NCBI GenBank assembly: GCA_951406725.2
Contig: OX597819.1
Span: forward strand, 117,366,001-117,430,000
Direction of reading: 5' to 3'
DNA from: Octopus vulgaris
Taxonomy: Eukaryota
DNA: 64,000 nt
Below the pieces are notes generated by a model. It saw only the letters and a list, made by a program, of their open reading frames with translations, did no database searches and was not told the DNA's origin. The position numbers and the translations under genes were made by a program. Below are positions 15,491 through 50,495 of the stretch, one piece after another. Positions within the stretch are counted from its first letter, which is position 1, and each line of letters opens with the position of its first letter.

Positions 15491-16618
15491 CAACATTGTT
15501 CTTTACACTGTTATTATTTTGTACATGTTTAATGAAACTGATTAGGAAAGAGAAAGTAAATGTCATTAACCGTAGTTTGCAGAGCAATACAAGGCCTCAA
15601 GATTGAGTTTATATTACTGTTCTAGTCATTTCTGTAGCTAAGTGTGTACATAAGATTGCAACAAACTCAAGATTGTGTTAAAGGAAACGATTAACTAAAT
15701 TAAGAAATATTCCCGATTTCATTGCCACCCGAAATCAGGTTTCTTGCATAATAAATTATTTAATTTAGGATGCTTGGTCTAAACTGTGAAAATGTAATCA
15801 TTGGCCGTGTGAACTTAGAAATATTTCTTTTAAACATTGTGTTCTAAGAAATCCTAAACCATGTTCATAACAATAACTATTTCTACGTACGACTGTATTG
15901 TAGTTATGAGGATTGACATTATTAGCGCTGCTTTCTAAACAATCAATAAATTAAAAGAGCCTAATTTTATTATGTGACGAAAATGAATTGGATTTTACAG
16001 CGCACTGAAGATAGCTGTGCATTTGTGTACGTGACGCCCTGCCATTTGCAATCTCTTGATTTCCGTCTAATTATCTGTTTCAACATAAACCAATAAGTCC
16101 TGTGATTATAGGTAGTCGAAATAGTCAAAGTGCGGACAAAATACATTATTTTGACTTTGCTTTTTGTTTTATTCTATTAAATCTTGTTTGAGATTATTTC
16201 CAATCCCCACTGGCCGAATAGCGTTGGTTAATTAATATCACCCTCTTTCGCCATTACGTTATTAAATTATTAACGGTGTACCCCATAAAACTCCATTATT
16301 CATAGAGACAGAATTGCTCATTCTCTTTGTTCCTTGCAACATAAGTATTAATGATAGCTGCAATATTTTCTGCTTATCTCATGTGACTGTCGGTTTGTTT
16401 ACACTTCCTTGTCATCGGAGTGAATATTAATAAACTGATGCAACTATATGATCAACGAAATAAAACATTCTGTACTAGTTTTAATTTCGTTTATTTTTAA
16501 AGGTTAACACATCTAGACCTTAGAATTCCATCGATCGAGGAAAACATATTGATCTTAGACAACAACCTAGAACCGCCACTCCTTATCACGATGCCTGGCA
16601 GAATTTGCAAACAAATAA

Positions 16619-17035
16619 GGCGGCGAGCTGGCAGAAACGTTAGCACGCCGGGAGAAATACTTAGCGGTACTTCGTCTGCCGTTACATTCTGAGTTCAAAT
16701 TCCGCCTAGGTCGACTGTGCGTTTCATCCTTTCGGGGTCGAAAAATTAAGTACCAGTTACGCACTGGGGTTGATGTAATCGACGTAATCCGTTTGTCTGT
16801 CCTTGTTTGTCTCCTCTGTTTTTAGCCCCTTGTGAATAGTAAAGAAATAGGTATTTCGTCTGTCGTTACGTTCTCAGTTCAAATTCCGCCGAGGCCGACA
16901 TTGCCTTTCATCCTTTCGGGGTCGAAAAATTAAGTAGCAGTTACGCACTAGGGTCGATATAATCGACCAAGTCCTTTTGTCTGTCCTTGTTTTTCCCCTC
17001 TGTGTTTAGCCCCTTGTGGGCAGTAAAGAAATAAG
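16619..17035 (+). mobile_element. SINE family A, tandem dimer
   Basis: Full unit followed by a second unit starting at gtatttcgtct; flanked by gaatt(t/a)gcaaacaaata direct repeats. Confidence 0.88.
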
Positions 17036-18152
17036 AATTAGCAAACAAATATCTCTCAAATCACTCTCAACTATATTGTACACTTGAGTTGCTGTACCAC
17101 ACACAAAACGCGATGGTTATGACTGGAATAACTTTCATCTCTGGTCCATTCTACTAATGTTGATTTAGAGCTAAAACACAACACATATATTATGAGGTAG
17201 TGCTTCTGGTTCGATAGAAAAAAACTTCTGTTCGTTGTTAAATTTGTCACTCTCTTTCTTAATTGATCATGTTTGCTCAGTATTCCCTGACATACACGGC
17301 TTACATTGTGAAACATTGTTCACAAGTAGCCACACATAGTGTTACACTAAGAAGATTTAGAAGCACTGTTTTTCTCAATACAAAGCACAATTGAATCTTT
17401 ATATTTGATGTTAGTCTGAGAAATGATGAACTGAATATTGTAAAACCATTTTAGAATTAATTAATTTTTTTTTCTTGGAAGATAAAACAAATAACCTGAA
17501 TGTTTTTTTCTTAATTACAATGTAAATTATGTTTAATTTATGGAAGATGGGGAAAATAGAATAAGATAAAATTAAATTAAATTAAAAATACCGTGATGTT
17601 ATTATTTCCGCAAAAATTAATTAACCATAGTCAAGGTTCAGTTATTAAAACGGCGAAATATAAATGATTTTGCTAAAAGCAATAAATAATCTCAGTTATA
17701 TTTGGGTATTTTAACGATACATAAAAGGAAATGTGTTATTGCTTTGAATAAATCTACGAATGAAAACATAAATATGTAGTGTTGTGTTTTATGGCAACGC
17801 ACGTATAAACACAGCGACACGCAGACACACGTATATTCATATATACTCATTTGTAAAACTTAAACACACCACGTCTTTCCTTTATGTTTATAACAGTTGA
17901 AGTTGAGTGAAGATGCTGAAAAACAAATGAAAAAGTTGATAGAGCATATCAGTGTATCATCTCCTATAGGTATTAAAAATGGCTTTGAACGATGAATTTC
18001 CTCGAGCTATGAGTAAAAGCAGTACTTATGCTTCAGACTTAACAATGGCAATATGGTTCAGTAGCACTATGTCCTACGCTGAATTCTAGTTCGATTCAAA
18101 AACGACAGATGCAAAAATTTAAATTCATTTTTACGTATGCATCATCGGGGCG

Positions 18153-21108: not shown

Positions 21109-21570
21109 ATACACATTCTTGTGTTTATTACATTCTCCATATCAATGATAAAACTATACTTTATGGTATTCTTCTGTAATAAATTTTCCTTAGATCTTCC
21201 AAGAATGTCTCACATAATTGATATTGAGTGCTTGGTTTGGAAAGAATCGTACAACATTTCAAACGGTAGCAAACAATTTACTTTCCAGAATGTTTTATCA
21301 TTTAAAAATGCTACAAAATTAAATTCTTATTTTAGTACATTTCTTTGAAACATACTAGATTCTCAGTATTTCTCTAACTGAAAACTGATACACTTCCATA
21401 TTTGAAAAGGAGATAAATATTTCCTCACTATTTTCATTTTATTATTGCACATATATTGAAGTCTCACATACATTTCAACGCTGTGACCTATGCAGGATTA
21501 TGTTTCCTTCGCGAGAGCAAGATACTCATAAGGCGAGTGAGAATTTCACAGACAAATATGCTCCTATATA

Positions 21571-21988
21571 TTTCTTTACTACCCATAAGGGGCTAAACAC
21601 AGAGACGACAAGCAAGGACAGACAAACGGATTAAGTCGATTATATCGAACCCACTGCGTAACTGGTACTTATTTAACCGACCCCCGAAAGGATGAAAGGC
21701 AAAGTCGACCACGGCGGAATTTGAACTCAGAACGTAACGGCAGACGAAATACCTGTTTCTTTACTACCCACAAGGGACTAAACACAGAGAGGGACAAACA
21801 AGGACAGACAAACGGATTAAGTCAATTATATCGACTCCAGTGCGTAACTGCTACTTATTTAATCGACCCCGAAAGGATGAAAGGCAAAGTCGACCGCGGC
21901 GGAATTTGATCTCAGAACGTAGCGGCAGACGTAATACCGCTAAGCATTTCACCTGGCATGCTAACGTTTCTGCCAGGTCACCACCTTA
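21571..21988 (-). mobile_element. SINE family A, tandem dimer
   Basis: Two consecutive reverse-complement family A bodies sharing one head at the right end. Confidence 0.88.
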
Positions 21989-22283
21989 TGCTCCTATCGT
22001 TAGTCCCAAGTGCTGAATCAGGGCGGCGTAAGCATATCAAGACTGGGCCTTCAAATTATATACCCAGTCCTCCGAAGGTTTCTATACAATTTCCATCTAC
22101 CCATCTACCCATAATAAATGTTTCGTCAAGAGTTGATAATAAATGTGTTTGCGCTAACTGTTCCGTAGTTGAATCGAATCCATCACGAAATTCTTAACTA
22201 TTTGATCTTCCATGCGTTTAGTTAACTAATATATTAAATCAATGTCTATCTTGGCCATTCTTTTATATTTTTGATATATATAC

Positions 22284-23467: not shown

Positions 23468-24260
23468 TACATGCACACACATATTTATATGTGAAATATA
23501 TCATTACTCGTTCCTATTGTATGGCTTTCATCTTACGCAAAATAGACAATGACGGGCAGTACAACATTCACTTACTCCAGATAAGTATCGCCATGTCCCT
23601 TGTATATGTATTTGACAAATTATATTTTCCACCACATAAGCTCGAATGTCAAAGCAATTGAATCACCCCTATTTTAGAAATAACCGTTCAATCCTATGTA
23701 TCGTTAAATATGACGCAATTAGTTTCCTATTGTAATCTAGGAACAAATATGGAAAATAAAATATCCTTTATTCTTGTAAAATATTACCACTTAAATGCTT
23801 AATGTGCACATGATATTATTCCACTCTAAAATTTAAACAGGTATACATACAACCTTTCAAGGCGTATTAAAACATTCCCATTAAATATGATATTTATAGC
23901 ATCGCATTTTCATCTTAATTGTTGTCCAATAAGTAATCTCATAAACTGCAAATTTAATTTTAAGACTACACAGCTAAAACTTGCTTCATTCCTCTCTCTC
24001 TCTCTCTCTCTCCGTCTCTCTGTCTCTCTGCTTTCTCTCGCTCTCGCTCTGTATCTGAATATATATAATGGTTAAGGCAGATACAAGTCCCTAACGGGTA
24101 CCGTGCTTCCTCTAGTTGTTTAACAAGCCTGGCTACACTCCCTGAATGTAGATAAACTCCAGTTAGTTAAATTTACTACAGTCACTTCGCTTAATCCAGA
24201 TCTCCTCATAATGGCTGCATAGCGTCGGTAGGGAAGTAATCTCTATTCTCCTGATAGTTA

Positions 24261-24262: not shown

Positions 24263-24355
<93 letters not shown>

Positions 24356-24428
24356 GTATATATATATGTATATATGTATGTATATATATGTATATATATA
24401 TATTGTATATATATATGTATATATTATG

Positions 24429-24463
<35 letters not shown>

Positions 24464-24512
24464 GTATATATATATGTATATATGTATGTATATATATATA
24501 TATGTATATATG

Positions 24513-24596
<84 letters not shown>

Positions 24597-24614
24597 TATA
24601 TATATATATATGTA

Positions 24615-24687
<73 letters not shown>

Positions 24688-24696
24688 GTAAATATG

Positions 24697-24730
<34 letters not shown>

Positions 24731-24735
24731 TGTAT
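24263..24735. repeat. (TA)n/(TATG) tract, left flank of the PLE array
   Basis: Imperfect TA microsatellite directly abutting the array start ttggctgacc. Confidence 0.95.
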
Positions 24736-25786
24736 TTGGCTGACCGGTTCGCGGAACACCTTCGTGACATCCACCTTGCGAACGACACACCGGTCTCACG
24801 CCATTTCCGCTCCACCGGTCACTCCTTGCAACACCTATCTGTGTTCGGTTTGTCCTTACACAGAGGCCATCCGGATTCCCGTTTGCGCCGTGAACAGGAA
24901 TTAATCTTCTCTCTTCGCTCTTATACGCCATTTGGTCTCAACTCTCCCCCCCTCCTCATCTAACCCCCCTCTCCCCCCTCCTCACCTATCCTTTCTTCCC
25001 CCGACCCCTACTTCTACAGTCCTTCATCCTTTCACCCCTACTCCCCTTCCCTTCTTCCCTCTTTCTCCCTCCCTCTTCCCCTTCCCTCTGCTCCCTCACT
25101 CCCTCTCTCCCTCTTTCCTCCTTCATCCCCCTCCTCCCCTTCCTTCTCCCCCATCCTCTCCTCTTCCCCCTTCTCCTCCCCCTCTTCTTCCCCTCGCCTT
25201 CTCTCCCCCTCTTCTCCCCCTCCCCCTCTTCTCCTCACTACACCACATGACTTTACACATCACATCACATATGATGTGCCATACTAATACACACACCAAC
25301 TAATACATACTAATACGTACTAATACATACCAGTACATACTAATACTTACACCAACCCTATACATACACACGTCCAGACCCCGCATACGCACTTATACTC
25401 TCTCTCACACACACACACACACCTATACATACCAATACGTACTAATACATACTAATACATACTAATACATACACCAACCCCATACATACGCACGTCCAGA
25501 CCAATCTTACGCACTAATACTCTCTCATACACACACACACACACACACACCCTTATACATACTAATACATACACCAACCCTATACATACACACATCCAGA
25601 CCCCTCCCACGCACTTTTAGCTGGTCCCTCAACCCTTTTATCAACCCTATTATCTCCCCTTATTTCGCTCTCGCGTCTCATGTTTGATCTTTGACCTCTG
25701 GCCGAAATCAGATCGCCATGTTGATTCGTTAGCTACTGCACGCATTTTTTTCTCTCCTTCTTTCTGTGTTTTTCTCTCTCTGTGTA

Positions 25787-25824
25787 TCTTTCTGTTGAAG
25801 AGCGTAGGCTCGAAACGTTAAAGA
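25787..25824 (+). ncRNA. Minimal hammerhead ribozyme variant (unit 0 pLTR)
   Basis: ucuuu-CUGUUGA-a-gagc-guag-gcuc-GAAA-cg-UU-aaaga: stem I, core with A6U, 4-bp stem II, palindromic AACGUU stem III. Confidence 0.7.
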
Positions 25825-26529
25825 CTTGTTTTATTTATATTTCCTGAGCGCCATACTAATACAATTGTTCGTTTGTTTTCCACCTGCCTTCGTCTTTTGT
25901 TTATTTTCATAAAGCTTCCCGTTATATATTATGCGCTCACGTGGTCTCACTTTCATCCTATATTCTACCAATATCACTATCAACACTTACCTCTACCTTG
26001 GATTTTCTTTACCTCTTGGATACTTACCATTGGCTGCACCTCTCTTTCGCGGATCAAAGTGACTTTGCATTGATGTGAAATCCTTAAAAAATATACCACG
26101 ACGTCTACACATTTCTCACCTTGAACTTTCAACCTTGAACTTGTTCGCATAAACTGTCCCGTTTGTTGTATTTTTATTTTATCTTATATTACCACTTTTT
26201 TTACATTCATTTCATGCTTCCCACATTTTCCTGAATTTTTGTTCTCCTTTCCGTCTTTCTTCCCTCTCTGGATGTCCATACTCCGTTTCCTCTGCCTGCA
26301 CCCCCCTTTTTTTGCCTCCCTCTCTCTGCTTCCCTTCTTTCTTTCCCTTTTCCGTTTGCCCCGTCTTTTCTGCCCCTATCGCTTACTTATCTAGTTTTTT
26401 CTTACGATTATTATTTTTTTGTTTTTTTGAACGTTTGTTTTTTCCCCTTTTTCGCTATCCCCTTTTTTTCTATTTTTTTCATACGATAATTTTTTGTTTT
26501 TTCGAACGTTTTTTTTCCGCTATCCCATC

Positions 26530-29436
26530 ATGCCGGATCCTAGGTCCTACCTCCTCACCCTCCATCACCGTTTGAAGGATCATCTACGTTCGCTTCCTGT
26601 ATATTGCCTTCAGCCGTCCGTTAATCTCTCTCTACTTCTTTTTAAAAAACCCGCTTCTCTAGCCATGTCTCTTTCCTAAGCCGCTGCCTACATCACCGAC
26701 TCATCCCTAAAGGTTTCCGCCTCCACTTCCACCCTGCTCTCCACTCGGATTCTTCCATCTTACCCATACTCCGCACCACATCTTACCGCCTTATGCGGGC
26801 CACCATTCGCTCCAATCTCTCCAAACTACATGCCATCAACCGCCTTCTTCCTCCTGCTTTCTCCACCTTCTTCTCCTCTCTGCCGCCTCTCTATGCTCCA
26901 AACACGCTACGCTTCATTATCCATTTGAATCAACTCTTCCATCAATTTCTTTCTGATACCAAACTTCGTAAACTCCAATCACTCTTCCATTCCACCCTAC
27001 CCGACGCCACTACCCCAACTCCTCCACCACCCTTCTCCCCTCCCGATAGGCTCCATCCACCCACACCTAACCCCACTGCCCCTCCCTACAACCCCTTCTC
27101 CCCTCCCGTTAGGCTCCATCCACCTACACCTAACCCTACTGCCCCGCCCAACCACCCCCCACACACCTCCCCAATCCCTCCCCCTCAGACCTCCACGAGA
27201 CCTACCACCCCTCCTACTTCTATTCCACCCACCCCTTCTCCACTTCCGTCTGTTGTTACCATTCCCCCCGATCTTCCCCTCTCTGCGGCTGAACGCTCCG
27301 TCCTTGGTAGGGGTCTGCGTTTCATCCCCCTCACTCCATCCTGTAAGGAATTCCAGACGCGAGTTGATGTCCACAGCTTTGTGCGCCGTGTCCGGTTGGG
27401 TGCGCATTACCACGACTCGCCACCCACACCCAACGAAGAGGACGACTGCTTCACTGGCCTGGGCCGCCGACCATCCCCGTGGACGCCTGCTCCTGGCCAG
27501 ATCCTAGCAGTGGATCTTTTCGCGGGCGCTTGTCAGCGTGCATTGGAGCGGTTCAACTTCTCCAGGCGCCAACGCCGCCTCAACATCTCCCCGGCTGAGC
27601 TCTTGGCTCTTCGTTCCCTCCAACGGCGCGCTGACATTATCATCAAACCGGCTGACAAGGGTGGAGCTGTAGTGGTGTGGCGCGCGGACCTCTATAGGGC
27701 CGAGGCTTTCCGCCAACTCAATGACACCTCCTTCTATTCCCCTCTGCCCTCTAACCCCACACGTAGCTACCAACAGACGGTATCCTCTACTGTCCAAGAC
27801 CTCATCTCGTCCTCCCGTCTCCCCCGCACCGCATCCAACCTAATTGTGCGAACCCCACGTACCCCCACCATTTACTTCCTCCCCAAAATCCACAAACCCA
27901 ACAACCCTGGCCGCCCCATCGTCTCCGCCTGTAACTGCCCCACGGAGCTCATCTCTAAATACCTCGACCGTGTCCTTGCCCCCCTAGTGGCATCTCTTCC
28001 CTCCCACATCCACGATACCAACCATGCTCTCCGGCTTTTCAACTCTTTCTCCTTTCCTCCCGGCTCCTCCAAAATCCTTTTTACTATGGACATCCAAAGC
28101 CTCTATACTGTTATCCCTCACCACGAAGGACTGCAGGCCCTTCGACACTTTCTTGACCTCCGCTCTAACCCTGTACCTGACACCTCCACACTCATTCGTC
28201 TGGCCGAACTTGTCCTTACTCTGAACTGCTTCTCGTTCGCGGGCGAGTTCTACCATCAGGTCTCGGGAGTGGCCATGGGAACGCGAATGGGCCCCAACTA
28301 TGCGAACCTGTTCGTTGGCTATGTTGAGGCCCAAATATTCTCTAATTTCACTGGTCCCACTCCTGAACTATATGGTCGTTATATTGACGACATTATCGGT
28401 GCCACCTCACTCTCCCGCGAACATCTAGATTCCTTCCTCTCTTTCGTCCAATCTTTCCATCCAGCCCTCCACTTCACTTCCACTATCTCCAACACCTCTG
28501 TCTCCTTCCTCGACATTTCGGTTAGCATTCTTCACTCCACTCTTACCACCTCCATTCACTACAAACACACAGACTCACACTCATACCTCAACTTCTCTTC
28601 CTCCCACCCAGAACACACCAAGCTTTCCATCCCCTATTCCCAATTCCTCCGTCTACGTAGGCTCTGTAGTGACGACCATGACTTTGAGACTCAGTCTCAA
28701 CGTATGGCTCACCACTTCACCCTACGTGGATACCCCCTCACCACTATCCACACCGCCCTTGCCAGAGCACGGTCCGTGGACCGTGTATCTGCTCTCTCTC
28801 CCCGAACCCGCCCTGTAGTCTCCCGCCTCCCTTTTCCCCTCACTTACCACCCCACGACCCTACGTCTCCAACGCACCATTCTTCGAGCTTTCCGTCATCT
28901 CCAGTCCGACCCGTCCACTTCACACCTCTTCCCTAACCGACCCCTCCCCTCTTTCAAACGAGCCCACAACCTTCGAGACCTTTTGGTCCATAGCTCCTTC
29001 CCTGACCCTACCTCCCAACCCGGCTCGTTCCCCTGCTCCCGCCCACGTTGCCGCACTTGCCCTTACCTCTCCAACACCACCCGCCTCACTAGCACCCACC
29101 ATCGACCCTATCCCATCATCCACTCCTTCACCTGCACCTCCAGCAATATTATCTATTGCATCTCTTGCTCTCTCTGCAATTCCTTGTATATCGGACAAAC
29201 GGGACGCCGCTTGGCTGACCGGTTCGCGGAACACCTTCGTGACATCCACCTTGCGAACGACACACCGGTCTCACGCCATTTCCGCTCCACCGGTCACTCC
29301 TTGCAACACCTATCTGTGTTCGGTTTGTCCTTACACAGAGGCCATCCGGATTCCCGTTTGCGCCGTGAACAGGAATTAATCTTCTCTCTTCGCTCTTATA
29401 CGCCATTTGGTCTCAACTCTCCCCCTCCTCATCTAA
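26530..29436 (+). CDS. PLE polyprotein copy 1: reverse transcriptase plus GIY-YIG endonuclease (~969 aa after repairing homopolymer indels)
   Basis: IIKPADKGGAVVVW, LPKIHK, RPIVS, TMDIQSLYT, GVAMGTRMGPNYANLF, RYIDDI, Cys linker CSRPRCRTC, IIYCISCSLC..LYIGQTGR..RFAEH..HF..H..REQELI..PFGLN. One-base loss at T5A6 (~26645). The C-run at ~29421 is 2 bases shorter than in unit 0, where it gives GLNSPPLLI*. Confidence 0.93.
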
Positions 29437-30256
29437 CCCCCCTCTCCCCCCTCCTCACCTATCCTTTCTTCCCCCGACCCCTACTTCTACAGTCCTTCAT
29501 CCTTTCACCCCTACTCCCCTTCCCTTCTTCCCTCTTTCTCCCTCCCTCTTCCCCTTCCCTCTGCTCCCTCACTCCCTCTCTCCCTCTTTCCTCCTTCATC
29601 CCCCTCCTCCCCTTCCTTCTCCCCCATCCTCTCCTCTTCCCCCTTCTCCTCCCCCTCTTCTTCCCCTCGCCTTCTCTCCCCCTCTTCTCCCCTCCCTCTT
29701 CTCCTCACTACACCACATGACTTTACACATCACATCACATATGATGTGCCATACTAATACACACACCAACTAATACATACTAATACGTACTAATACATAC
29801 CAGTACATACTAATACTTACACCAACCCTATACATACACACGTCCAGACCCCGCATACGCACTTATACTCTCTCTCACACACACACACACACCTATACAT
29901 ACCAATACGTACTAATACATACTAATACATACTAATACATACACCAACCCCATACATACGCACGTCCAGACCAATCTTACGCACTAATACTCTCTCATAC
30001 ACACACACACACACACACACCCTTATACATACTAATACATACACCAACCCTATACATACACACATCCAGACCCCTCCCACGCACTTTTAGCTGGTCCCTC
30101 AACCCTTTTATCAACCCTATTATCTCCCCTTATTTCGCTCTCGCGTCTCATGTTTGATCTTTGACCTCTGGCCGAAATCAGATCGCCATGTTGATTCGTT
30201 AGCTACTGCACGCATTTTTTTCTCTCCTTCTTTCTGTGTTTTTCTCTCTCTGTGTA

Positions 30257-30294
30257 TCTTTCTGTTGAAGAGCGTAGGCTCGAAACGTTAAAGA
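30257..30294 (+). ncRNA. Minimal hammerhead ribozyme variant (unit 1)
   Basis: Identical to 25787-25824. Confidence 0.7.
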
Positions 30295-31001
30295 CTTGTT
30301 TTATTTATATTTCCTGAGCGCCATACTAATACAATTGTTCGTTTGTTTTCCACCTGCCTTCGTCTTTTGTTTATTTTCATAAAGCTTCCCGTTATATATT
30401 ATGCGCTCACGTGGTCTCACTTTCATCCTATATTCTACCAATATCACTATCAACACTTACCTCTACCTTGGATTTTCTTTACCTCTTGGATACTTACCAT
30501 TGGCTGCACCTCTCTTTCGCGGATCAAAGTGACTTTGCATTGATGTGAAATCCTTAAAAAATATACCACGACGTCTACACATTTCTCACCTTGAACTTTC
30601 AACCTTGAACTTGTTCGCATAAACTGTCCCGTTTGTTGTATTTTTATTTTATCTTATATTACCACTTTTTTTACATTCATTTCATGCTTCCCACATTTTC
30701 CTGAATTTTTGTTCTCCTTTCCGTCTTTCTTCCCTCTCTGGATGTCCATACTCCGTTTCCTCTGCCTGCACCCCCTTTTTTTGCCTCCCCCTCTCTCTGC
30801 TTCCCTTCTTTCTTTCCCTTTTCCGTTTGCCCCGTCTTTTCTGCCCCTATCGCTTACTTATCTAGTTTTTTCTTACGATTATTATTTTTTTGTTTTTTTG
30901 AACGTTTGTTTTTTCCCCTTTTTTCGCTATCCCCTTTTTTTCTATTTTTTTCATACGATAATTTTTTGTTTTTTCGAACGTTTTTTTTCCGCTATCCCAT
31001 C

Positions 31002-33908
31002 ATGCCGGATCCTAGGTCCTACCTCCTCACCCTCCATCACCGTTTGAAGGATCATCTACGTTCGCTTCCTGTATATTGCCTTCAGCCGTCCGTTAATCTC
31101 TCTCTACTTCTTTTTAAAAAAACCCGCTTCTCTAGCCATGTCTCTTTCCTAAGCCGCTGCCTACATCACCGACTCATCCCTAAAGGTTTCCGCCTCCACT
31201 TCCACCCTGCTCTCCACTCGGATTCTTCCATCTTACCCATACTCCGCACCACATCTTACCGCCTTATGCGGGCCACCATTCGCTCCAATCTCTCCAAACT
31301 ACATGCCATCAACCGCCTTCTTCCTCCTGCTTTCTCCACCTTCTTCTCCTCTCTGCCGCCTCTCTATGCTCCAAACACGCTACGCTTCATTATCCATTTG
31401 AATCAACTCTTCCATCAATTTCTTTCTGATACCAAACTTCGTAAACTCCAATCACTCTTCCATTCCACCCTACCCGACGCCACTACCCCAACTCCTCCAC
31501 CACCCTTCTCCCCTCCCGATAGGCTCCATCCACCCACACCTAACCCCACTGCCCCTCCCTACAACCCCTTCTCCCCTCCCGTTAGGCTCCATCCACCTAC
31601 ACCTAACCCTACTGCCCCGCCCAACCACCCCCCACACACCTCCCCAATCCCTCCCCCTCAGACCTCCACGAGACCTACCACCCCTCCTACTTCTATTCCA
31701 CCCACCCCTTCTCCACTTCCGTCTGTTGTTACCATTCCCCCCGATCTTCCCCTCTCTGCGGCTGAACGCTCCGTCCTTGGTAGGGGTCTGCGTTTCATCC
31801 CCCTCACTCCATCCTGTAAGGAATTCCAGACGCGAGTTGATGTCCACAGCTTTGTGCGCCGTGTCCGGTTGGGTGCGCATTACCACGACTCGCCACCCAC
31901 ACCCAACGAAGAGGACGACTGCTTCACTGGCCTGGGCCGCCGACCATCCCCGTGGACGCCTGCTCCTGGCCAGATCCTAGCAGTGGATCTTTTCGCGGGC
32001 GCTTGTCAGCGTGCATTGGAGCGGTTCAACTTCTCCAGGCGCCAACGCCGCCTCAACATCTCCCCGGCTGAGCTCTTGGCTCTTCGTTCCCTCCAACGGC
32101 GCGCTGACATTATCATCAAACCGGCTGACAAGGGTGGAGCTGTAGTGGTGTGGCGCGCGGACCTCTATAGGGCCGAGGCTTTCCGCCAACTCAATGACAC
32201 CTCCTTCTATTCCCCTCTGCCCTCTAACCCCACACGTAGCTACCAACAGACGGTATCCTCTACTGTCCAAGACCTCATCTCGTCCTCCCGTCTCCCCCGC
32301 ACCGCATCCAACCTAATTGTGCGAACCCCACGTACCCCCACCATTTACTTCCTCCCCAAAATCCACAAACCCAACAACCCTGGCCGCCCCATCGTCTCCG
32401 CCTGTAACTGCCCCACGGAGCTCATCTCTAAATACCTCGACCGTGTCCTTGCCCCCCTAGTGGCATCTCTTCCTCCCACATCCACGATACCAACCATGCT
32501 CTCCGGCTTTTCAACTCTTTCTCCTTTCCTCCCGGCTCCTCCAAAATCCTTTTTACTATGGACATCCAAAGCCTCTATACTGTTATCCCTCACCACGAAG
32601 GACTGCAGGCCCTTCGACACTTTCTTGACCTCCGCTCTAACCCTGTACCTGACACCTCCACACTCATTCGTCTGGCCGAACTTGTCCTTACTCTGAACTG
32701 CTTCTCGTTCGCGGGCGAGTTCTACCATCAGGTCTCGGGAGTGGCCATGGGAACGCGAATGGGCCCCAACTATGCGAACCTGTTCGTTGGCTATGTTGAG
32801 GCCCAAATATTCTCTAATTTCACTGGTCCCACTCCTGAACTATATGGTCGTTATATTGACGACATTATCGGTGCCACCTCACTCTCCCGCGAACATCTAG
32901 ATTCCTTCCTCTCTTTCGTCCAATCTTTCCATCCAGCCCTCCACTTCACTTCCACTATCTCCAACACCTCTGTCTCCTTCCTCGACATTTCGGTTAGCAT
33001 TCTTCACTCCACTCTTACCACCTCCATTCACTACAAACACACAGACTCACACTCATACCTCAACTTCTCTTCCTCCCACCCAGAACACACCAAGCTTTCC
33101 ATCCCCTATTCCCAATTCCTCCGTCTACGTAGGCTCTGTAGTGACGACCATGACTTTGAGACTCAGTCTCAACGTATGGCTCACCACTTCACCCTACGTG
33201 GATACCCCCTCACCACTATCCACACCGCCCTTGCCAGAGCACGGTCCGTGGACCGTGTATCTGCTCTCTCTCCCCGAACCCGCCCTGTAGTCTCCCGCCT
33301 CCCTTTTCCCCTCACTTACCACCCCACGACCCTACGTCTCCAACGCACCATTCTTCGAGCTTTCCGTCATCTCCAGTCCGACCCGTCCACTTCACACCTC
33401 TTCCCTAACCGACCCCTCCCCTCTTTCAAACGAGCCCACAACCTTCGAGACCTTTTGGTCCATAGCTCCTTCCCTGACCCTACCTCCCAACCCGGCTCGT
33501 TCCCCTGCTCCCGCCCACGTTGCCGCACTTGCCCTTACCTCTCCAACACCACCCGCCTCACTAGCACCCACCATCGACCCTATCCCATCATCCACTCCTT
33601 CACCTGCACCTCCAGCAATATTATCTATTGCATCTCTTGCTCTCTCTGCAATTCCTTGTATATCGGACAAACGGGACGCCGCTTGGCTGACCGGTTCGCG
33701 GAACACCTTCGTGACATCCACCTTGCGAACGACACACCGGTCTCACGCCATTTCCGCTCCACCGGTCACTCCTTGCAACACCTATCTGTGTTCGGTTTGT
33801 CCTTACACAGAGGCCATCCGGATTCCCGTTTGCGCCGTGAACAGGAATTAATCTTCTCTCTTCGCTCTTATACGCCATTTGGTCTCAACTCTCCCCCTCC
33901 TCATCTAA
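31002..33908 (+). CDS. PLE polyprotein copy 2 (RT plus GIY-YIG)
   Basis: N-terminus MPDPRSY...FKKTRFSSHVSFLSRCLHHRLIPKGFRL is in frame here; a single C loss at ~32472 splits it into ORFs 30906-32696 and 32558-34195. Confidence 0.92.
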
Positions 33909-34733
33909 CCCCCCTCTCCCCCTCCTCACCTATCCTTTCTTCCCCCGACCCCTACTTCTACAGTCCTTCATCCTTTCACCCCTACTCCCCTTCCCTTCTT
34001 CCCTCTTTCTCCCTCCCTCTTCCCCTTCCCTCTGCTCCCTCACTCCCTCTCTCCCTCTTTCCTCCTTCATCCCCCTCCTCCCCTTCCTTCTCCCCCATCC
34101 TCTCCTCTTCCCCCCTTCTCCTCCCCCTCTTCTTCCCCTCGCCTTCTCTCCCCCTCTTCTCCCCCTCCCCCTCTTCTCCTCACTACACCACATGACTTTA
34201 CACATCACATCACATATGATGTGCCATACTAATACACACACCAACTAATACATACTAATACGTACTAATACATACCAGTACATACTAATACTTACACCAA
34301 CCCTATACATACACACGTCCAGACCCCGCATACGCACTTATACTCTCTCTCACACACACACACACACCTATACATACCAATACGTACTAATACATACTAA
34401 TACATACTAATACATACACCAACCCCATACATACGCACGTCCAGACCAATCTTACGCACTAATACTCTCTCATACACACACACACACACACACACACCCT
34501 ATACATACTAATACATACACCAACCCTATACATACACACATCCAGACCCCTCCCACGCACTTTTAGCTGGTCCCTCAACCCTTTTATCAACCCTATTATC
34601 TCCCCTTATTTCGCTCTCGCGTCTCATGTTTGATCTTTGACCTCTGGCCGAAATCAGATCGCCATGTTGATTCGTTAGCTACTGCACGCATTTTTTTTCT
34701 CTCCTTCTTTCTGTGTTTTTCTCTCTCTGTGTA

Positions 34734-34771
34734 TCTTTCTGTTGAAGAGCGTAGGCTCGAAACGTTAAAGA
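34734..34771 (+). ncRNA. Minimal hammerhead ribozyme variant (unit 2)
   Basis: Identical to 25787-25824. Confidence 0.7.
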
Positions 34772-35479
34772 CTTGTTTTATTTATATTTCCTGAGCGCCA
34801 TACTAATACAATTGTTCGTTTGTTTTCCACCTGCCTTCGTCTTTTGTTTATTTTCATAAAGCTTCCCGTTATATATTATGCGCTCACGTGGTCTCACTTT
34901 CATCCTATATTCTACCAATATCACTATCAACACTTACCTCTACCTTGGATTTTCTTTACCTCTTGGATACTTACCATTGGCTGCACCTCTCTTTCGCGGA
35001 TCAAAGTGACTTTGCATTGATGTGAAATCCTTAAAAAATATACCACGACGTCTACACATTTCTCACCTTGAACTTTCAACCTTGAACTTGTTCGCATAAA
35101 CTGTCCCGTTTGTTGTATTTTTATTTTATCTTATATTACCACTTTTTTTACATTCATTTCATGCTTCCCACATTTTCCTGAATTTTTGTTCTCCTTTCCG
35201 TCTTTCTTCCCTCTCTGGATGTCCATACTCCGTTTCCTCTGCCTGCACCCCCCTTTTTTTGCCTCCCCCTCTCTCTGCTTCCCTTCTTTCTTTCCCTTTT
35301 CCGTTTGCCCCGTCTTTTCTGCCCCTATCGCTTACTTATCTAGTTTTTTCTTACGATTATTATTTTTTTGTTTTTTTGAACGTTTGTTTTTTCCCCTTTT
35401 TTCGCTATCCCCTTTTTTTCTATTTTTTTCATACGATAATTTTTTGTTTTTTCGAACGTTTTTTTTCCGCTATCCCATC

Positions 35480-38386
35480 ATGCCGGATCCTAGGTCCTAC
35501 CTCCTCACCCTCCATCACCGTTTGAAGGATCATCTACGTTCGCTTCCTGTATATTGCCTTCAGCCGTCCGTTAATCTCTCTCTACTTCTTTTAAAAAAAC
35601 CCGCTTCTCTAGCCATGTCTCTTTCCTAAGCCGCTGCCTACATCACCGACTCATCCCTAAAGGTTTCCGCCTCCACTTCCACCCTGCTCTCCACTCGGAT
35701 TCTTCCATCTTACCCATACTCCGCACCACATCTTACCGCCTTATGCGGGCCACCATTCGCTCCAATCTCTCCAAACTACATGCCATCAACCGCCTTCTTC
35801 CTCCTGCTTTCTCCACCTTCTTCTCCTCTCTGCCGCCTCTCTATGCTCCAAACACGCTACGCTTCATTATCCATTTGAATCAACTCTTCCATCAATTTCT
35901 TTCTGATACCAAACTTCGTAAACTCCAATCACTCTTCCATTCCACCCTACCCGACGCCACTACCCCAACTCCTCCACCACCCTTCTCCCCTCCCGATAGG
36001 CTCCATCCACCCACACCTAACCCCACTGCCCCTCCCTACAACCCCTTCTCCCCTCCCGTTAGGCTCCATCCACCTACACCTAACCCTACTGCCCCGCCCA
36101 ACCACCCCCCACACACCTCCCCAATCCCTCCCCCTCAGACCTCCACGAGACCTACCACCCCTCCTACTTCTATTCCACCCACCCCTTCTCCACTTCCGTC
36201 TGTTGTTACCATTCCCCCCGATCTTCCCCTCTCTGCGGCTGAACGCTCCGTCCTTGGTAGGGGTCTGCGTTTCATCCCCCTCACTCCATCCTGTAAGGAA
36301 TTCCAGACGCGAGTTGATGTCCACAGCTTTGTGCGCCGTGTCCGGTTGGGTGCGCATTACCACGACTCGCCACCCACACCCAACGAAGAGGACGACTGCT
36401 TCACTGGCCTGGGCCGCCGACCATCCCCGTGGACGCCTGCTCCTGGCCAGATCCTAGCAGTGGATCTTTTCGCGGGCGCTTGTCAGCGTGCATTGGAGCG
36501 GTTCAACTTCTCCAGGCGCCAACGCCGCCTCAACATCTCCCCGGCTGAGCTCTTGGCTCTTCGTTCCCTCCAACGGCGCGCTGACATTATCATCAAACCG
36601 GCTGACAAGGGTGGAGCTGTAGTGGTGTGGCGCGCGGACCTCTATAGGGCCGAGGCTTTCCGCCAACTCAATGACACCTCCTTCTATTCCCCTCTGCCCT
36701 CTAACCCCACACGTAGCTACCAACAGACGGTATCCTCTACTGTCCAAGACCTCATCTCGTCCTCCCGTCTCCCCCGCACCGCATCCAACCTAATTGTGCG
36801 AACCCCACGTACCCCCACCATTTACTTCCTCCCCAAAATCCACAAACCCAACAACCCTGGCCGCCCCATCGTCTCCGCCTGTAACTGCCCCACGGAGCTC
36901 ATCTCTAAATACCTCGACCGTGTCCTTGCCCCCCTAGTGGCATCTCTTCCCTCCCACATCCACGATACCAACCATGCTCTCCGGCTTTTCAACTCTTTCT
37001 CCTTTCCTCCCGGCTCCTCCAAAATCCTTTTTACTATGGACATCCAAAGCCTCTATACTGTTATCCCTCACCACGAAGGACTGCAGGCCCTTCGACACTT
37101 TCTTGACCTCCGCTCTAACCCTGTATCTGACACCTCCACACTCATTCGTCTGGCCGAACTTGTCCTTACTCTGAACTGCTTCTCGTTCGCGGGCGAGTTC
37201 TACCATCAGGTCTCGGGAGTGGCCATGGGAACGCGAATGGGCCCCAACTATGCGAACCTGTTCGTTGGCTATGTTGAGGCCCAAATATTCTCTAATTTCA
37301 CTGGTCCCACTCCTGAACTATATGGTCGTTATATTGACGACATTATCGGTGCCACCTCACTCTCCCGCGAACATCTAGATTCCTTCCTCTCTTTCGTCCA
37401 ATCTTTCCATCCAGCCCTCCACTTCACTTCCACTATCTCCAACACCTCTGTCTCCTTCCTCGACATTTCGGTTAGCATTCTTCACTCCACTCTTACCACC
37501 TCCATTTACTACAAACACACAGACTCACACTCATACCTCAACTTCTCTTCCTCCCACCCAGAACACACCAAGCTTTCCATCCCCTATTCCCAATTCCTCC
37601 GTCTACGTAGGCTCTGTAGTGACGACCATGACTTTGAGACTCAGTCTCAACGTATGGCTCACCACTTCACCCTACGTGGATACCCCCTCACCACTATCCA
37701 CACCGCCCTTGCCAGAGCACGGTCCGTGGACCGTGTATCTGCTCTCTCTCCCCGAACCCGCCCTGTAGTCTCCCGCCTCCCTTTTCCCCTCACTTACCAC
37801 CCCACGACCCTACGTCTCCAACGCACCATTCTTCGAGCTTTCCGTCATCTCCAGTCCGACCCGTCCACTTCACACCTCTTCCCTAACCGACCCCTCCCCT
37901 CTTTCAAACGAGCCCACAACCTTCGAGACCTTTTGGTCCATACTCCTTCCCTGACCCTACCTCCCAACCCGGCTCGTTCCCCTGCTCCCGCCCACGTTGC
38001 CGCACTTGCCCTTACCTCTCCAACACCACCCGCCTCACTAGCACCCACCATCGACCCTATCCCATCATCCACTCCTTCACCTGCACCTCCAGCAATATTA
38101 TCTATTGCATCTCTTGCTCTCTCTGCAATTCCTTGTATATCGGACAAACGGGACGCCGCTTGGCTGACCGGTTCGCGGAACACCTTCGTGACATCCACCT
38201 TGCGAACGACACACCGGTCTCACGCCATTTCCGCTCCACCGGTCACTCCTTGCAACACCTATCTGTGTTCGGTTTGTCCTTACACAGAGGCCATCCGGAT
38301 TCCCGTTTGCGCCGTGAACAGGAATTAATCTTCTCTCTTCGCTCTTATACGCCATTTGGTCTCAACTCTCCCCCCTCCTCATCTAA
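35480..38386 (+). CDS. PLE polyprotein copy 3 (RT plus GIY-YIG)
   Basis: Same protein; one-base losses at ~35590 (T4A7) and ~37943 (catactcc vs catagctcc); P>S and H>Y substitutions. Confidence 0.9.
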
Positions 38387-39210
38387 CCCCCTCTCCCCCC
38401 TCCTCACCTATCCTTTCTTCCCCCGACCCCTACTTCTACAGTCCTTCATCCTTTCACCCCTACTCCCCTTCCCTTCTTCCCTCTTTCTCCCTCCCTCTTC
38501 CCCTTCCCTCTGCTCCCTCACTCCCTCTCTCCCTCTTTCCTCCTTCATCCCCCTCCTCCCCTTCCTTCTCCCCCATCTTCTCCTCTTCCCCCTTCTCCTC
38601 CCCCTCTTCTTCCCCTCGCCTCTCTCCCCCTCTTCTCCCCCTCCCCCTCTTCTCCTCACTACACCACATGACTTTACACATCACATCACATATGATGTGC
38701 CATACTAATACACACACCAACTAATACATACTAATACGTACTAATACATACCAGTACATACTAATACTTACACCAACCCTATACATACACACGTCCAGAC
38801 CCCGCATACGCACTTATACTCTCTCTCACACACACACACACACCTATACATACCAATACGTACTAATACATACTAATACATACTAATACATACACCAACC
38901 CCATACATACGCACGTCCAGACCAATCTTACGCACTAATACTCTCTCATACACACACACACACACACACACACCCTTATACATACTAATACATACACCAA
39001 CCCTATACATACACACATCCAGACCCCTCCCACGCACTTTTAGCTGGTCCCTCAACCCTTTTATCAACCCTATTATCTCCCCTTATTTCGCTCTCGCGTC
39101 TCATGTTTGATCTTTGACCTCTGGCCGAAATCAGATCGCCATGTTGATTCGTTAGCTACTGCACGCATTTTTTTTCTCTCCTTCTTTCTGTGTTTTTCTC
39201 TCTCTGTGTA

Positions 39211-39248
39211 TCTTTCTGTTGAAGAGCGTAGGCTCGAAACGTTAAAGA
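39211..39248 (+). ncRNA. Minimal hammerhead ribozyme variant (unit 3)
   Basis: Identical to 25787-25824. Confidence 0.7.
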
Positions 39249-39348
39249 CTTGTTTTATTTATATTTCCTGAGCGCCATACTAATACAATTGTTCGTTTGT
39301 TTTCCACCTGCCTTCGTCTTTTGTTTATTTTCATAAAGCTTCCCGTTA

Positions 39349-40222
<874 letters not shown>

Positions 40223-41730: not shown

Positions 41731-41996
41731 TATTGTTGTATTTAGAAATGGTCATTTTGCCAGTTTAGCCAATAAAAACACACGCACTATATATTTCATG
41801 TTACTTTGCTTCAGCGTTATTCATTTTTTACATTAATCTTAAACTTATTACATTATAATCTTTTTACATTAATCTTAATACGATTAAGATTAATGTAAAA
41901 AGTGAATAACGCTGAAGCAAAGTAACACCAAATATATAGTGCGTGTGTTTTTATTGGCTAAACTGGCAAAATGACCATCCCTAAATACAGCAATAT
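41731..41996. repeat. Fold-back element with ~110-bp inverted arms
   Basis: atggtcattttgccagtttagccaataaaaacacacgcactatatattt is reverse-complementary to aaatatatagtgcgtgtgtttttattggctaaactggcaaaatgaccat. Confidence 0.9.
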
Positions 41997-46127: not shown

Positions 46128-47040
46128 ACAGACCTGGTAGAAACAGCAGCCAAATCTCCCTCAAATCACACCTTACTGTCTTATGTATGTATATATATAT
46201 ATGAGCCAATGAGGGGGACCTCTACTTGGTAGCTAGACCTGGTAGAAATAGCAGCCAAATTTCCCCCAAATCACACCTTACTGTCTTATCTATGTATATA
46301 TGTATGTATGAGCCTATGAGGGAGACCCCTACATGGCAGCTAGACCTGGTAGATATAGCAGCCAAATTTCCCCCAAATCACACCTTACTGTCTTATCTAT
46401 GTATATATGTATGTATGAGCCTATGAGGGAGACCCCTACATGGAAGCTAGACCTGGTAGAAATAGCAGCCAAATTTCCCCCAAATCACACCTTACTGTCT
46501 TATCTATGTATATATGTATGTATGAGCCTATGAGGGAGACCCCTACATGGCAGCTAGACCTGGTAGATATAGCAGCCAAATTTCCCCCAAATCACACCTT
46601 ACTGTCTTATCTATGTATATATGTATGTATGAGCCTATGAGGGAGACCCCTACATGGAAGCTAGACCTGGTAGAAATAGCAGCCAAATTTCCCCCAAATC
46701 ACACCTTACTGTCTTATCTATGTATATATGTATGTATGAGCCTATGAGGGAGACCCCTACATGGCAGCTAGACCTGGTAGAAATAGCAGCCAAATTTCCC
46801 CCAAATCACACCTTACTGTCTTATCTATGTATATATGTATGTATGAGCCTATGAGGGAGACCCCTACATGGCAGCTAGACCTGGTAGAAATAGCAGCCAA
46901 ATTTCCCCCAAATCACACCTTACTGTCTTATCTATGTATATATGTATGTATGAACCTATGAGGGAGACCCCTACATGGCAGCTAGACATGGTAGAAATAG
47001 CAGCCAAATCTCCCTCAAATCACACCTTACTGTCTTATCT
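46128..47040 (+). repeat. 107-bp minisatellite, ~8.5 copies
   Basis: Unit gagcctatgagggagacccctacatggcagctagacctggtagaaatagcagccaaatttcccccaaatcacaccttactgtcttatct...; ORF starts recur every 107 bp. Confidence 0.96.
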
Positions 47041-47553: not shown

Positions 47554-48189
47554 CTAGCAGTATCGCCCGGCGTTGCTCGGGTTTGTAAGGGAAATAACTA
47601 TATAAGCATTTTTAGAGAGTTATAGCCAAAAAATAGCAAAAAATGCATTAAAAATGGAAAAAATATGATAGTAAATTTTTTTAAAAATCGTTGACTCATC
47701 GTAGACATTTTTAGAGAGTTACTTCCCTTATATAATAGCGAAAAAATGCATTAAAATGGAAAAAAAACGATGGTAAATTTTTTTTAAATCGTAGACTCAT
47801 GTAGACGCTTTCTTAGCCATTTCTGTTTTGGTGTCTTCAAGCCATGAAGTCGTTGTTCTAAAAGAACACTGGTCTCCTTGACAACGCATTACGACGTTGA
47901 TTTCCTTACACTCCCTTCCCCACAGGTGCAGGTGTGAGCGTGGACGCCAACTCCGCCGCCATCGACACACGAAAAATTATGCATTAAAATGGAATAAAAA
48001 ATGATGGTAAATTATTTTTAAAATCGTCGACTCATCGTAGACGCGCGCTAATATTCAGACGGGCTCGATATGAATCACGACTATAAGCTACCCGAATTTG
48101 GTTAAACTGTACCGCAAAATGTGGGAGTAGTTAGGAATCTAAATCGAAGGGGACAGACACTCACACAACTACAGTTTTATATATATAGA
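47554..48189 (-). mobile_element. Non-autonomous Helitron (family A, longer variant)
   Basis: Same TC start, hairpin and CTAG end as 44947-45339, with internal subrepeats. Confidence 0.8.
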
Positions 48190-48207
48190 TATACATAGCG
48201 CAGTAGT

Positions 48208-48565
48208 GGTGAGATATGACAGCAAAGAAAAGCATACATTCACTCTCTGCATGCAATTAGACTCGGAAAGTTCGTGAGGAACCCATTGACCCAATTTGCT
48301 GACTTTTCCGATAGCACACAGGTGTCAATGAATGGTTGAATGACCAAATCCAAGCTTCTCTGCTAGTTCCTCAACAGTTACGATGATATTTTGTTCCACC
48401 AGGGTTTTCAGGATGGCCTTGTCGAGTTCTACAGATCTTTCAGGATGAGGCTCGTCTTCTAGGCTGTAGTTTATGGCTCGGGATTTCTGGAACCACCATT
48501 GACACTGCCTTACGCTTATTGTCCAATCCCCATATACTGCATTAATATTTCTTGTACTTTGCACA
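48208..48565 (-). pseudogene. Mariner (Mos1/SETMAR-like) transposase fragment
   Basis: TRNINAVYGDWTISVRQCQWWFQK...LEDEPHPER...TVEELAEKLG..HSTIH*HLCAIGKVSKLGQWVPHELSE: HTH domains and WVPHEL linker with an in-frame stop. Confidence 0.88.
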
Positions 48566-48866
48566 CATTTATATTCTGTTATTCTTTTATATGTTTCAGC
48601 CTTGAGGTTGTGGCCATGCTGGATCATGTGTGTGTGTGTGTGTGTGTGTCTATCTGTCTGTCTGTCTGTATGTATGTATATATGTATATGTATGTGTGTG
48701 AACAATAATATTTTCAACAGATGTGTTGCAAATGTATCTGATTGTTCTCAAGCTTCAATACTGTGTGTGTGTGTATGTGTGTGTGTGTATGTATGTATGT
48801 ATATGTATGTATTATGTATGTATATGTATGTATGTATGTATGTGTGTGTGTATATATGTGTGTGTA

Positions 48867-48901
<35 letters not shown>

Positions 48902-49822: not shown

Positions 49823-50180
49823 GGTGAGATATGACAGCAAAGAAAAGCATACATTCACTCTCTGCATGCAATTAGACTCGGAAAGTTCGTGAGGAACCCA
49901 TTGACCCAATTTGCTGACTTTTCCGATAGCACACAGGTGTCAATGAATGGTTGAATGATCAAATCCAAGCTTCTCTGCTAGTTCCTCAACAGTTACGATG
50001 ATATTTTGTTCCACCAGGGTTTTCAGGATGTCCTTGTCGAGTTCTACAGATCTTTCAGGATGAGGCTCGTCTTCTAGGCTGTAGTTTATGGCTCGGGATT
50101 TCTGGAACCACCATTGACACTGCCTTACGCTTATTGTCCAATCCCCATATACTGCATAAATATTTCTTGTACTTTGCACA
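49823..50180 (-). pseudogene. Duplicated mariner transposase fragment
   Basis: Second copy of 48208-48565 with a few substitutions. Confidence 0.88.

Positions 50181-50462: not shown

Positions 50463-50495
<33 letters not shown>

What the first reader, a model, noticed from the sequence alone, without database searches (positions are those of the whole stretch)
24736..39348. 3.3-unit concatemer of a young Penelope-like element suggests ribozyme-delimited, rolling-circle-like reverse transcription into (TA)n
Seen: one 5'-truncated unit followed by three complete, near-identical units with identical junctions; one HHR per unit at a fixed spacing of ~4.47 kb; the array ends ~100 nt downstream of the last HHR. 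Known: PLEs normally form partial tandems (pLTR plus one unit), carry HHRs and use GIY-YIG target-primed RT; HHR-flanked retrozyme RNAs circularise. Inference: cleavage at consecutive HHRs would release an exact unit-length RNA that could circularise, and processive RT around it (or precise serial template jumps) would give this n+partial structure. The element may still be active and microsatellite-specific.
Basis: partly seen in the sequence, partly recalled or inferred. Interest (0 to 1): 0.85.

Follow-up and report, generated by a model that had tools for sequence, protein, structure and literature searches.

The report
Penelope retrotransposon array, likely circle-copied
This is three and a bit head-to-tail copies of a young Penelope-like jumping gene sitting in a TA repeat, and its hundred-odd relatives show that the gene's copying enzyme likely runs more than once round the same RNA, which bears on an open question about how these elements rebuild their ends.

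Summary
The array is as described: a 1,189-bp 5'-truncated piece plus three ~4.47-kb units of a Neptune-type Penelope-like element (PLE) between (TA)n tracts. It has three identical junctions and four hammerhead-like motifs. It is the extreme of a large young family (3,290 exact 3' ends; 143 exact junctions; only 2 multi-unit full-length loci found).

Family data support re-reading of one template:
- pLTRs carry their own unit's alleles (210 of 229).
- The junction is invariant.
- 28 of 60 junction-less copies stop at a putative transcription start, but only 1 of 101 full-length pLTRs does.
- Deleted mini-units repeat their own joint (9 of 9).

Hammerhead delimitation is not shown. No end maps to the cut site (0 of 161), and the core carries A6U. 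Joints instead map to the start site and 12 nt downstream. Ordinary pLTR lengths (maximum 2,124) make three turns improbable under a uniform stop rate, so later unequal crossover remains a close rival.

Tandem PLEs and the circular-RNA idea are already published (2014). New here are genomic footprints that make pLTR regeneration testable.

The parts
24264..24735 (.). left (TA)n target tract
24736..25924 (+). U0: 5'-truncated copy = pseudo-LTR (end of GIY-YIG region, 3' UTR, putative start site, hammerhead-like motif)
   Evidence: its length is typical of family pLTRs (median 857)
25708..25724 (+). putative transcription start: initiator-like TCAGATC (consensus recalled). Unit position 4264 = 25712; recurrent joint site 4276 = 25724. 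Equivalents at 30182/30194, 34658/34670 and 39135/39147
   Evidence: pile of 5' ends in 28 of 60 junction-less copies; mini joints; start site inferred
25787..25824 (+). minimal type I hammerhead-like motif 1: CUGUUGA core (A6U), extra A after position 9, 4-bp helix II, palindromic ACGU; predicted cut after 25819
   Evidence: sequence; conservation; no Rfam hit
25911..25944 (+). junction 1, holding the short (AT)3 at which copies end (inferred priming site); identical at 30381 and 34858
25925..30394 (+). U1, full unit
26530..29720 (+). U1 ORF: RT, Cys linker (CX4CX2C) and GIY-YIG with CCHH residues; one homopolymer frameshift near 26640 as assembled
   Evidence: RVT_1 E 1.3e-7, above cut-off; GIY-YIG E 6e-4, 20.4 bits, below the 22.6 cut-off
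30257..30294 (+). hammerhead-like motif 2
30395..34871 (+). U2, full unit (ORF from 31002, frameshifted near 32471 as assembled); 0 substitutions against sister locus L047
34734..34771 (+). hammerhead-like motif 3
34872..39348 (+). U3, full unit (ORF from 35480, two frameshifts as assembled); C>T at 37126, 37507 and 38578 not in U0-U2
39211..39248 (+). hammerhead-like motif 4; predicted cut after 39243, 105 nt from the 3' end
39350..40221 (.). right (TA)n tract; holds a second copy (39515-39529) of a 15-mer from the left flank (24244-24258)

Best explanation
The array is 3.3 head-to-tail units of a young Neptune-type Penelope-like retrotransposon in a (TA)n tract, likely laid down in one insertion by its reverse transcriptase running several times round one unit-length RNA that would be closed into a circle at its two hammerheads. 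Steps: (1) Transcription likely starts at unit position ~4262-4264 in the pLTR (inferred from piled 5' ends). (2) A transcript with two minimal hammerheads would be cut as a dimer and ligated (untested). One-hammerhead transcripts would stay linear and give the ~213-nt solo copies. (3) The GIY-YIG domain likely nicks (TA)n, and cDNA starts at the element's own (AT)3 (the fixed 3' end is shown; priming is inferred). (4) RT crosses the invariant junction and re-copies its own 3' end. The match of pLTR to own unit is shown; displacement of the first cDNA, which would explain the shorter second pass, is inferred. (5) Rare runs would make two or three turns. My odds for the parts: pLTR made by re-reading one template ~0.85; this array born in one RT run ~0.55; closure at the hammerhead, given re-reading, ~0.55-0.6.
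For: pLTR carries its own unit's shared minor allele at 210 of 229 sites. 12 of 21 pLTRs are sister to their own unit and 7 are unresolved. Only 2 genome-wide hits of the unit start lack the standard junction, against 143 with it. 5' ends at unit 4255-4276: 28 of 60 junction-less copies (7 of 21 young-type) against 1 of 101 full-length pLTRs; Fisher p 1e-17, and 4e-6 for young-type only. Sister copies differ in pLTR start (L047 3214, ours 3289). Second pass shorter than first: beyond the start site, 5 of 14 first-pass copies against 4 of 71 pLTRs exceed 1,500 nt, p 0.005. Deleted mini-units repeat their own joint in 9 of 9 informative loci, up to 4.5 turns in L104. 9 of 19 deletion joints lie upstream of the start site. 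L234, whose template would hold one hammerhead, stops at 4264. The array shares no private substitution among units and is among the youngest 9 of 73 loci, which hold 1.8% of summed age. Between subfamilies the 44-nt motif has one fixed change, at cleavage position 17 (U/A), against 6 in the 71 nt upstream. Canonical-core motifs of the same shape occur in the genome: 233 hits against 2 controls. Internal initiation by a PLE RT is shown in vitro (PMC11167929).
Against: No end at the predicted cut: 0 of 101 pLTRs, 0 of 60 solos, 0 of 19 joints. Core position 6 is U throughout the family; a natural A6C variant cleaves at <0.1/min (PMC3088659), and metazoan minimal PLE hammerheads are weak in vitro. 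In the anole PLE, hammerhead mutants still insert and uncut RNA is the main substrate. Joints recur at 4276 (6 different left ends) and once at 4263, which looks like RT jumping from linear RNA ends. No single-junction pLTR exceeds 2,124 nt (0 of 101 over 2,200), so a uniform stop rate predicts 0.03-0.45 two-junction and 0.002-0.00001 three-junction loci. All 3 true substitutions lie in U3 (p 0.086 under a star history). 19 of 229 sites and 2 of 21 loci (L083, L098) contradict the pLTR-own unit match (cause not checked). Downstream of the motif (4379-4450) within-subfamily variation is as low as in the motif (1.4% against 1.5%).
Confidence: 0.35

Rival explanations
1. An ordinary pLTR-plus-one-unit insertion (its pLTR made by re-reading) was later expanded by unequal crossover between the 1,189-bp pLTR and the 3' repeat. 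This gives exactly the same structure, as in tandem LTR elements that share an LTR (analogy recalled).
For: Multi-unit loci are outliers to the pLTR-length tail. The pattern U1=U2, U3 distinct fits a nested history. The two units of the only other full-length multimer, L118, share 7 substitutions seen in no other unit, against 8 differences.
Against: The array has no shared private change and lies in the youngest 1.8% of summed age. L118's pLTR also carries the one shared private site it covers (4071), so those sites may come from the template. Longer pLTRs are younger (rho -0.26, p 0.027), which fits loss of long repeats over time and would thin the tail.
Confidence: 0.28
2. The same single RT run, but on uncut linear RNA: RT hops from the RNA 5' end region (4263-4276) to the 3' repeat or 3' end and starts again, so the hammerhead plays no part.
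For: Fixed right joint at 4276 with left ends 245, 267, 277, 291 (two loci), 308 and 917; 4 of 19 joints in unselected loci. L234 joins 2093 to 4263 and ends at 4264; L228, a full-length copy, ends at 4275. Hammerhead dispensable in vitro.
Against: It needs a scarless hop in about 99 of 100 full-length events without RNase H, onto a repeat already paired with cDNA. No excess of indels at 4262-4280. 9 of 19 joints lie upstream of the start site.
Confidence: 0.22
3. Assembly artefact: one or two units, or two haplotypes, unrolled into three.
For: U1 and U2 differ only by homopolymer indels. A 15-mer and part of the repeat pattern of the left flank recur in the right tract. Duplicated loci L124-L127 show private homopolymer deletions, so consensus errors exist.
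Against: Each unit has its own indels, and U3 has its own substitutions. The indel load is like that of other young loci. Other copies with near-identical long pLTRs are assembled as single units.
Confidence: 0.11
4. Linear read-through RNA from a multi-unit source locus, copied once, as in the scenario sketched in PMC11167929.
For: Multi-copy mRNA is the published scenario. Three copies end at +150 to +155 beyond the junction, so RNA spanning the junction is used.
Against: No other locus with three or more full-unit junctions among the 143 listed hits. It predicts a pile of pLTRs at the start site (1 of 101) and equal processivity in both passes.
Confidence: 0.04

Closest known systems
Neptune-clade EN+ Penelope-like elements (Craig et al. 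2021, PMC8557442; Arkhipova et al. 2013, PMC3846280; passages seen)
   Same: Single ORF with RT, Cys-rich linker and C-terminal GIY-YIG; pLTR partial tandems; 5' truncation and inversions; microsatellite targets; hammerhead in the pLTR.
   Different: Three full units rather than one; U at hammerhead core position 6. Clade not tested on a tree with named references.
Circular-RNA, more-than-unit model for PLE tandems (Cervera and De la Pena 2014, PMC4209133; introduction, results and discussion read)
   Different: That paper gives no insertion-end statistics. Here the ends avoid the transcription start in full-length copies and leave no mark at the cut site.
Poseidon PAc of Anolis (Frangieh et al. 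2024, PMC11167929; main text read)
   Same: Tandem repeats in the genome, AT-rich targets, internal initiation of RT.
   Different: PAc starts at a site without homology to the target, 111-118 nt into the ORF, and needs no hammerhead cleavage. Here copies end at an (AT)3 that matches the (TA)n target.
Non-LTR retrozymes (PMC7229834, passages; bioRxiv 10.64898/2026.07.22.740005, first fifth and passages)
   Same: The 468-617-bp mini-tandems derived from this element keep the hammerhead and junction and form n-plus-partial arrays.
   Different: The array itself is protein-coding and ~10 times longer. The minis here can be traced base by base to their parent and have recurrent joints.
Drosophila virilis Penelope (Schostak et al. 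2008, PMC2377424; passages)
   Same: Promoter and start site in the pLTR; variably truncated upstream copy; states that no obvious mechanism of pLTR regeneration is known.
   Different: That paper regards pLTRs as tandem insertions not generated by reverse transcription. Here nearly every copy that reaches the unit start runs on through one fixed junction.

Membership tests
EN+ Penelope-like element | single ORF with RT and C-terminal GIY-YIG | tested here: met
   RVT_1 above cut-off; GIY-YIG E 6e-4, just under cut-off, while aligned homologues pass; 12 of 75 family units have an open frame
EN+ Penelope-like element | pLTR partial tandem with variable 5' truncation | tested here: met
   101 full-length loci with pLTRs of 34-2,124 nt
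EN+ Penelope-like element | RT groups with PLE RTs in a phylogeny | not tested
   no named reference set was fetched; 471 homologues with the same domain order
Neptune clade | CX2-5CxxC linker between RT and EN | tested here: met
   CSRPRCRTC, conserved in 4 of 5 aligned homologues; the fifth is truncated. The linker is shared with Nematis
Neptune clade | microsatellite target | tested here: met
   59 of 60 sampled 3' ends are followed by an AT-rich microsatellite
Neptune clade | placement with Neptune rather than Nematis | not tested
   inferred from linker and target only
minimal type I hammerhead | extra base after 9, G10.1-C11.1 helix II, GAAA, palindromic 15.2-16.2, NUH, helix I | tested here: met
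   sequence against the features; helix II forms in the fold; position 17 varies U/A
minimal type I hammerhead | conserved core CUGANGA | tested here: not met
   CUGUUGA in the family; no Rfam hit. Filed as hammerhead-like, not as a proven ribozyme
minimal type I hammerhead | self-cleavage | not testable with these tools
   no ends at the site; only contigs were available
non-LTR retrozyme / rolling-circle template | unit-length circular RNA | not testable with these tools
   no raw RNA reads listed
non-LTR retrozyme / rolling-circle template | more-than-unit copies of one template | tested here: met
   mini joints repeated in 9 of 9
non-LTR retrozyme / rolling-circle template | short and non-coding | tested here: not met
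   the array unit is 4.47 kb and coding; only the mini derivatives qualify

The most novel reading that the evidence does not exclude
An autonomous 4.5-kb Penelope-like element transposes through a hammerhead-closed circular RNA. Its RT primes internally at (AT)3, rebuilds the pLTR on every insertion by overrunning one turn, and made this array in three turns. One-hammerhead transcripts stay linear and give solo copies and retrozyme-like minis.
Probability: 0.3. Interest if true: 0.8.

Novelty: new member of a known kind. Interest (0 to 1): 0.55.

Why it matters
How PLEs regenerate their promoter-bearing pLTR has been called unexplained (PMC2377424), and what their hammerheads do is unclear (PMC8557442, PMC11167929). 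This family maps three competing RNA ends to the base: the start at ~4264, a joint site at 4276, and the hammerhead cut at 4373. It also shows that full-length copies almost never stop at the start site. Circle, hop and recombination models therefore make different, cheap predictions. If the circle is real, it would be a protein-coding retrotransposon using a circular RNA template, and a direct link to how retrozymes are born. The array alone proves little.

Tried and rejected
Rfam scan: no hammerhead hit, only microsatellite and hairpin noise. My first regex for CTGANGA found nothing in the array; the register UUGAAGA was rejected because helix II then fails.

Folding of the start-hammerhead-junction region is no more stable than shuffles (z 1.16).

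Sequencing runs: no holder on record as RNA was listed. The 4 runs laid were contigs only. Three runs guessed to be RNA cover all 30 bins, but their junction-crossing pieces have only 23-25 letters on one side, under the tool's bar, and no RNA-specific joint or piled end was shown. This is no evidence either way.

Junction as a jump from variable TA tails: rejected. Splicing as the source of mini joints: rejected, no GT/AG at the ends. A scar at 4275|4276 or 4373: none. Indels as markers of independent RT passes: rejected, since they recur in homopolymers and differ among duplicated loci. Excess indels in the array as a sign of artefact: not seen. A count of helix II base-pair covariation among the matches was not completed, so covariation is unquantified.

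Rows left out of the pLTR counts: 16 of 92 first-batch loci (15 minis or rearranged, 1 multimer), 7 BLAST-ranked loci (L124-L130), 5 of 15 and 5 of 20 later loci (minis, rearranged, or start unresolved). L086 dropped from the tree. Some junction loci were never fetched at 10 kb. Exact patterns miss diverged copies, and the 60 solos come from one contig and one allele class.

Literature: searches showed no paper with such insertion-end statistics, but subscription papers are not held, PMC5850863 was not available, and no supplements were read (bioRxiv ones are closed).
Full report
OBSERVATION. The window holds a 1,189-bp 5'-truncated piece (U0, 24736-25924) and three full units of 4,470, 4,477 and 4,477 bp between two (TA)n tracts. 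The three junctions are identical. Differences are mostly homopolymer indels, plus three C>T changes confined to U3. The ORF has RT, a CX4CX2C linker and GIY-YIG. Each unit is frameshifted as assembled, at homopolymers except one single-G gap. Such indels recur at the same runs in other copies and differ among duplicated loci, so they are probably consensus errors. 12 of 75 other units are open for 1,059-1,082 aa. The host looks like an octopus; this is my recall-based guess, not a tool result.

FAMILY CENSUS. The genome has 3,290 exact matches to a 25-mer at the 3' end (one allele class) and 143 to the junction. Two allele-split searches list 85 + 58 junction hits in full. Among them only this locus (3 junctions) and L118 (2) are full-length multimers; the other clustered hits are 468-507-bp minis. 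I fetched 127 unselected junction loci and 60 unselected 3'-end loci. The 3' end is fixed, and 59 of 60 are followed by an AT-rich microsatellite. Only 2 hits of the unit start lack the standard junction, so the junction is copied from a template rather than made anew.

THE pLTR IS RE-COPIED FROM THE SAME TEMPLATE. Where a unit has a minor allele shared with another unit, its pLTR has it too at 210 of 229 sites; 14 of 72 singleton alleles are also shared. On a tree, 12 of 21 pLTRs are sister to their own unit, 7 are unresolved and 2 pair with each other. L047 has 0 substitutions against U2 but a different pLTR start.

RNA ENDS (unit coordinates, U3 = 1-4477). 28 of 60 junction-less copies start at 4255-4276, mode 4264, beside an initiator-like TCAGATC; I infer a transcription start. 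Only 1 of 101 full-length pLTRs ends there; 92 run past it, median length 857, maximum 2,124. The contrast holds for young-type copies alone (7 of 17 at risk, p 4e-6). A capped linear RNA copied once would pile up at this site, so full-length copies likely come from a template without that end. Second passes are shorter than first passes (p 0.005), as displacement of the first cDNA would predict (inference). No end maps to the hammerhead cut: 0 of 101, 0 of 60, and 0 of 19 joints.

MINI DERIVATIVES. 19 independent deleted derivatives turned up among the unselected loci. They keep the hammerhead, the junction and mostly ~250-350 nt of leader. Where the upstream repeat reaches the joint it reproduces it (9 of 9, including L203 from a targeted search); L104 has 4.5 near-identical turns with a 5' inversion. 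4 of 19 join exactly at 4276, and a targeted search raises this to six different left ends. L234 joins at 4263 and stops at 4264. 9 of 19 join upstream of the start site. The 4276 site is unexplained.

HAMMERHEAD. The motif has the shape of metazoan PLE minimal hammerheads (PMC4209133) but U at core position 6, and Rfam does not score it. Between the two subfamilies it has one fixed change, at position 17. Same-shape motifs, mostly with the canonical core, are common in the genome (233 against 2 controls). A change at position 6 lowers activity in a tested natural variant, and the anole PLE does not need cleavage in vitro. A circle closed at dimer-dependent hammerheads would explain why one-motif RNAs end at the start site while two-motif RNAs do not. 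An efficient RT hop would too. The data do not separate the two.

ORIGIN OF THIS ARRAY. Unequal crossover between pLTR and 3' repeat gives the same structure. Against one RT run: the pLTR-length tail predicts 0.002-0.00001 three-junction loci, and all substitutions are in U3 (p 0.086). For it: there are no shared private changes, and the locus falls among the youngest 9 of 73, which hold 1.8% of summed age. Longer pLTRs are also younger (rho -0.26), which suggests long repeats are lost with time. L118 is ambiguous. A 15-mer of the left flank recurs in the right tract; the same test on 70 other loci gave 4 hits, all microsatellite-like words. This could be repair slippage or mis-assembly. Reads could not test copy number.

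COMPARISON. Tandem and partial-tandem PLEs are known. The circle with more-than-unit RT was proposed in 2014, and retrozymes are proposed PLE derivatives with shown circular RNAs. What I saw: PMC11167929 parts 1-2 of 4; PMC4209133 parts 1-2 of 4; bioRxiv 10.64898/2026.07.22.740005 part 1 of 5 and passages; passages only of PMC8557442, PMC2377424, PMC3846280, PMC3088659, PMC7229834 and PMC13282606; no supplements. Eight searches showed no report of these end statistics, within the library's limits.

VERDICT. A new member of a known kind. Odds for this array: hammerhead circle in one run 0.35, later unequal crossover 0.28, RT hopping in one run 0.22, artefact 0.11, multi-unit read-through 0.04. 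Interest 0.55, carried by the family-level evidence on pLTR regeneration rather than by the array.

Noticed in passing
L104 (G000:C8:18.60 Mb), L045/L060, L048, L087, L203, L204, L205: Retrozyme-like minis of 446-617 bp derived from this element; six different left ends join exactly to unit position 4276, 12 nt below the putative start site. Cause unknown.
   Followed up: partly
L234:4419-6953: Deleted copy joined at 2093|4263 whose upstream repeat stops at 4264: looks like an RT jump from an RNA 5' end and then a stop at a 5' end.
   Followed up: partly
L073:4765, L091:4764, L232:4780: Three insertions end at +150 to +155 beyond the junction, followed by TA repeats, each with an inverted 5' segment: a possible second initiation ('tail') site.
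   Followed up: partly
L131-L190: An abundant ~213-nt solo form (start site to 3' end) in two subfamilies, SINE-like; the older type makes up 38 of 60 sampled ends.
   Followed up: partly
window 24244-24258 and 39515-39529: A 15-mer and part of the repeat-interruption pattern of the left flank recur 165 nt after the 3' end: long target duplication, repair slippage or mis-assembly.
   Followed up: partly
L118/L123 (G000:C10:7.33 Mb): The only other full-length multimer (pLTR plus two units); the units share 7 private substitutions and differ at 8.
   Followed up: yes
L191-L202 and the list: 233 minimal hammerhead-like motifs with other helix II sequences, mostly CUGAUGA-A, probably from other PLE families.
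   Followed up: no
L124-L127 (contigs C35, C36, C44): One insertion present four times with the same flanks on small contigs: segmental or haplotype duplicates.
   Followed up: partly
window 46130-47040: 107-bp tandem repeat, 8.5 copies, 97% matches.
   Followed up: no
window 47569-50790: 1.6-kb direct tandem duplication, 96.8% identical.
   Followed up: no
window 16613-17039, 21566-21989, 56064-56579, 57861-58283: Several copies of a SINE-like repeat with ~184-bp internal duplications.
   Followed up: no
window 41786-41940 and 60869-60991: Long near-perfect hairpins (MITE-like) that draw sub-threshold miRNA matches in Rfam.
   Followed up: no
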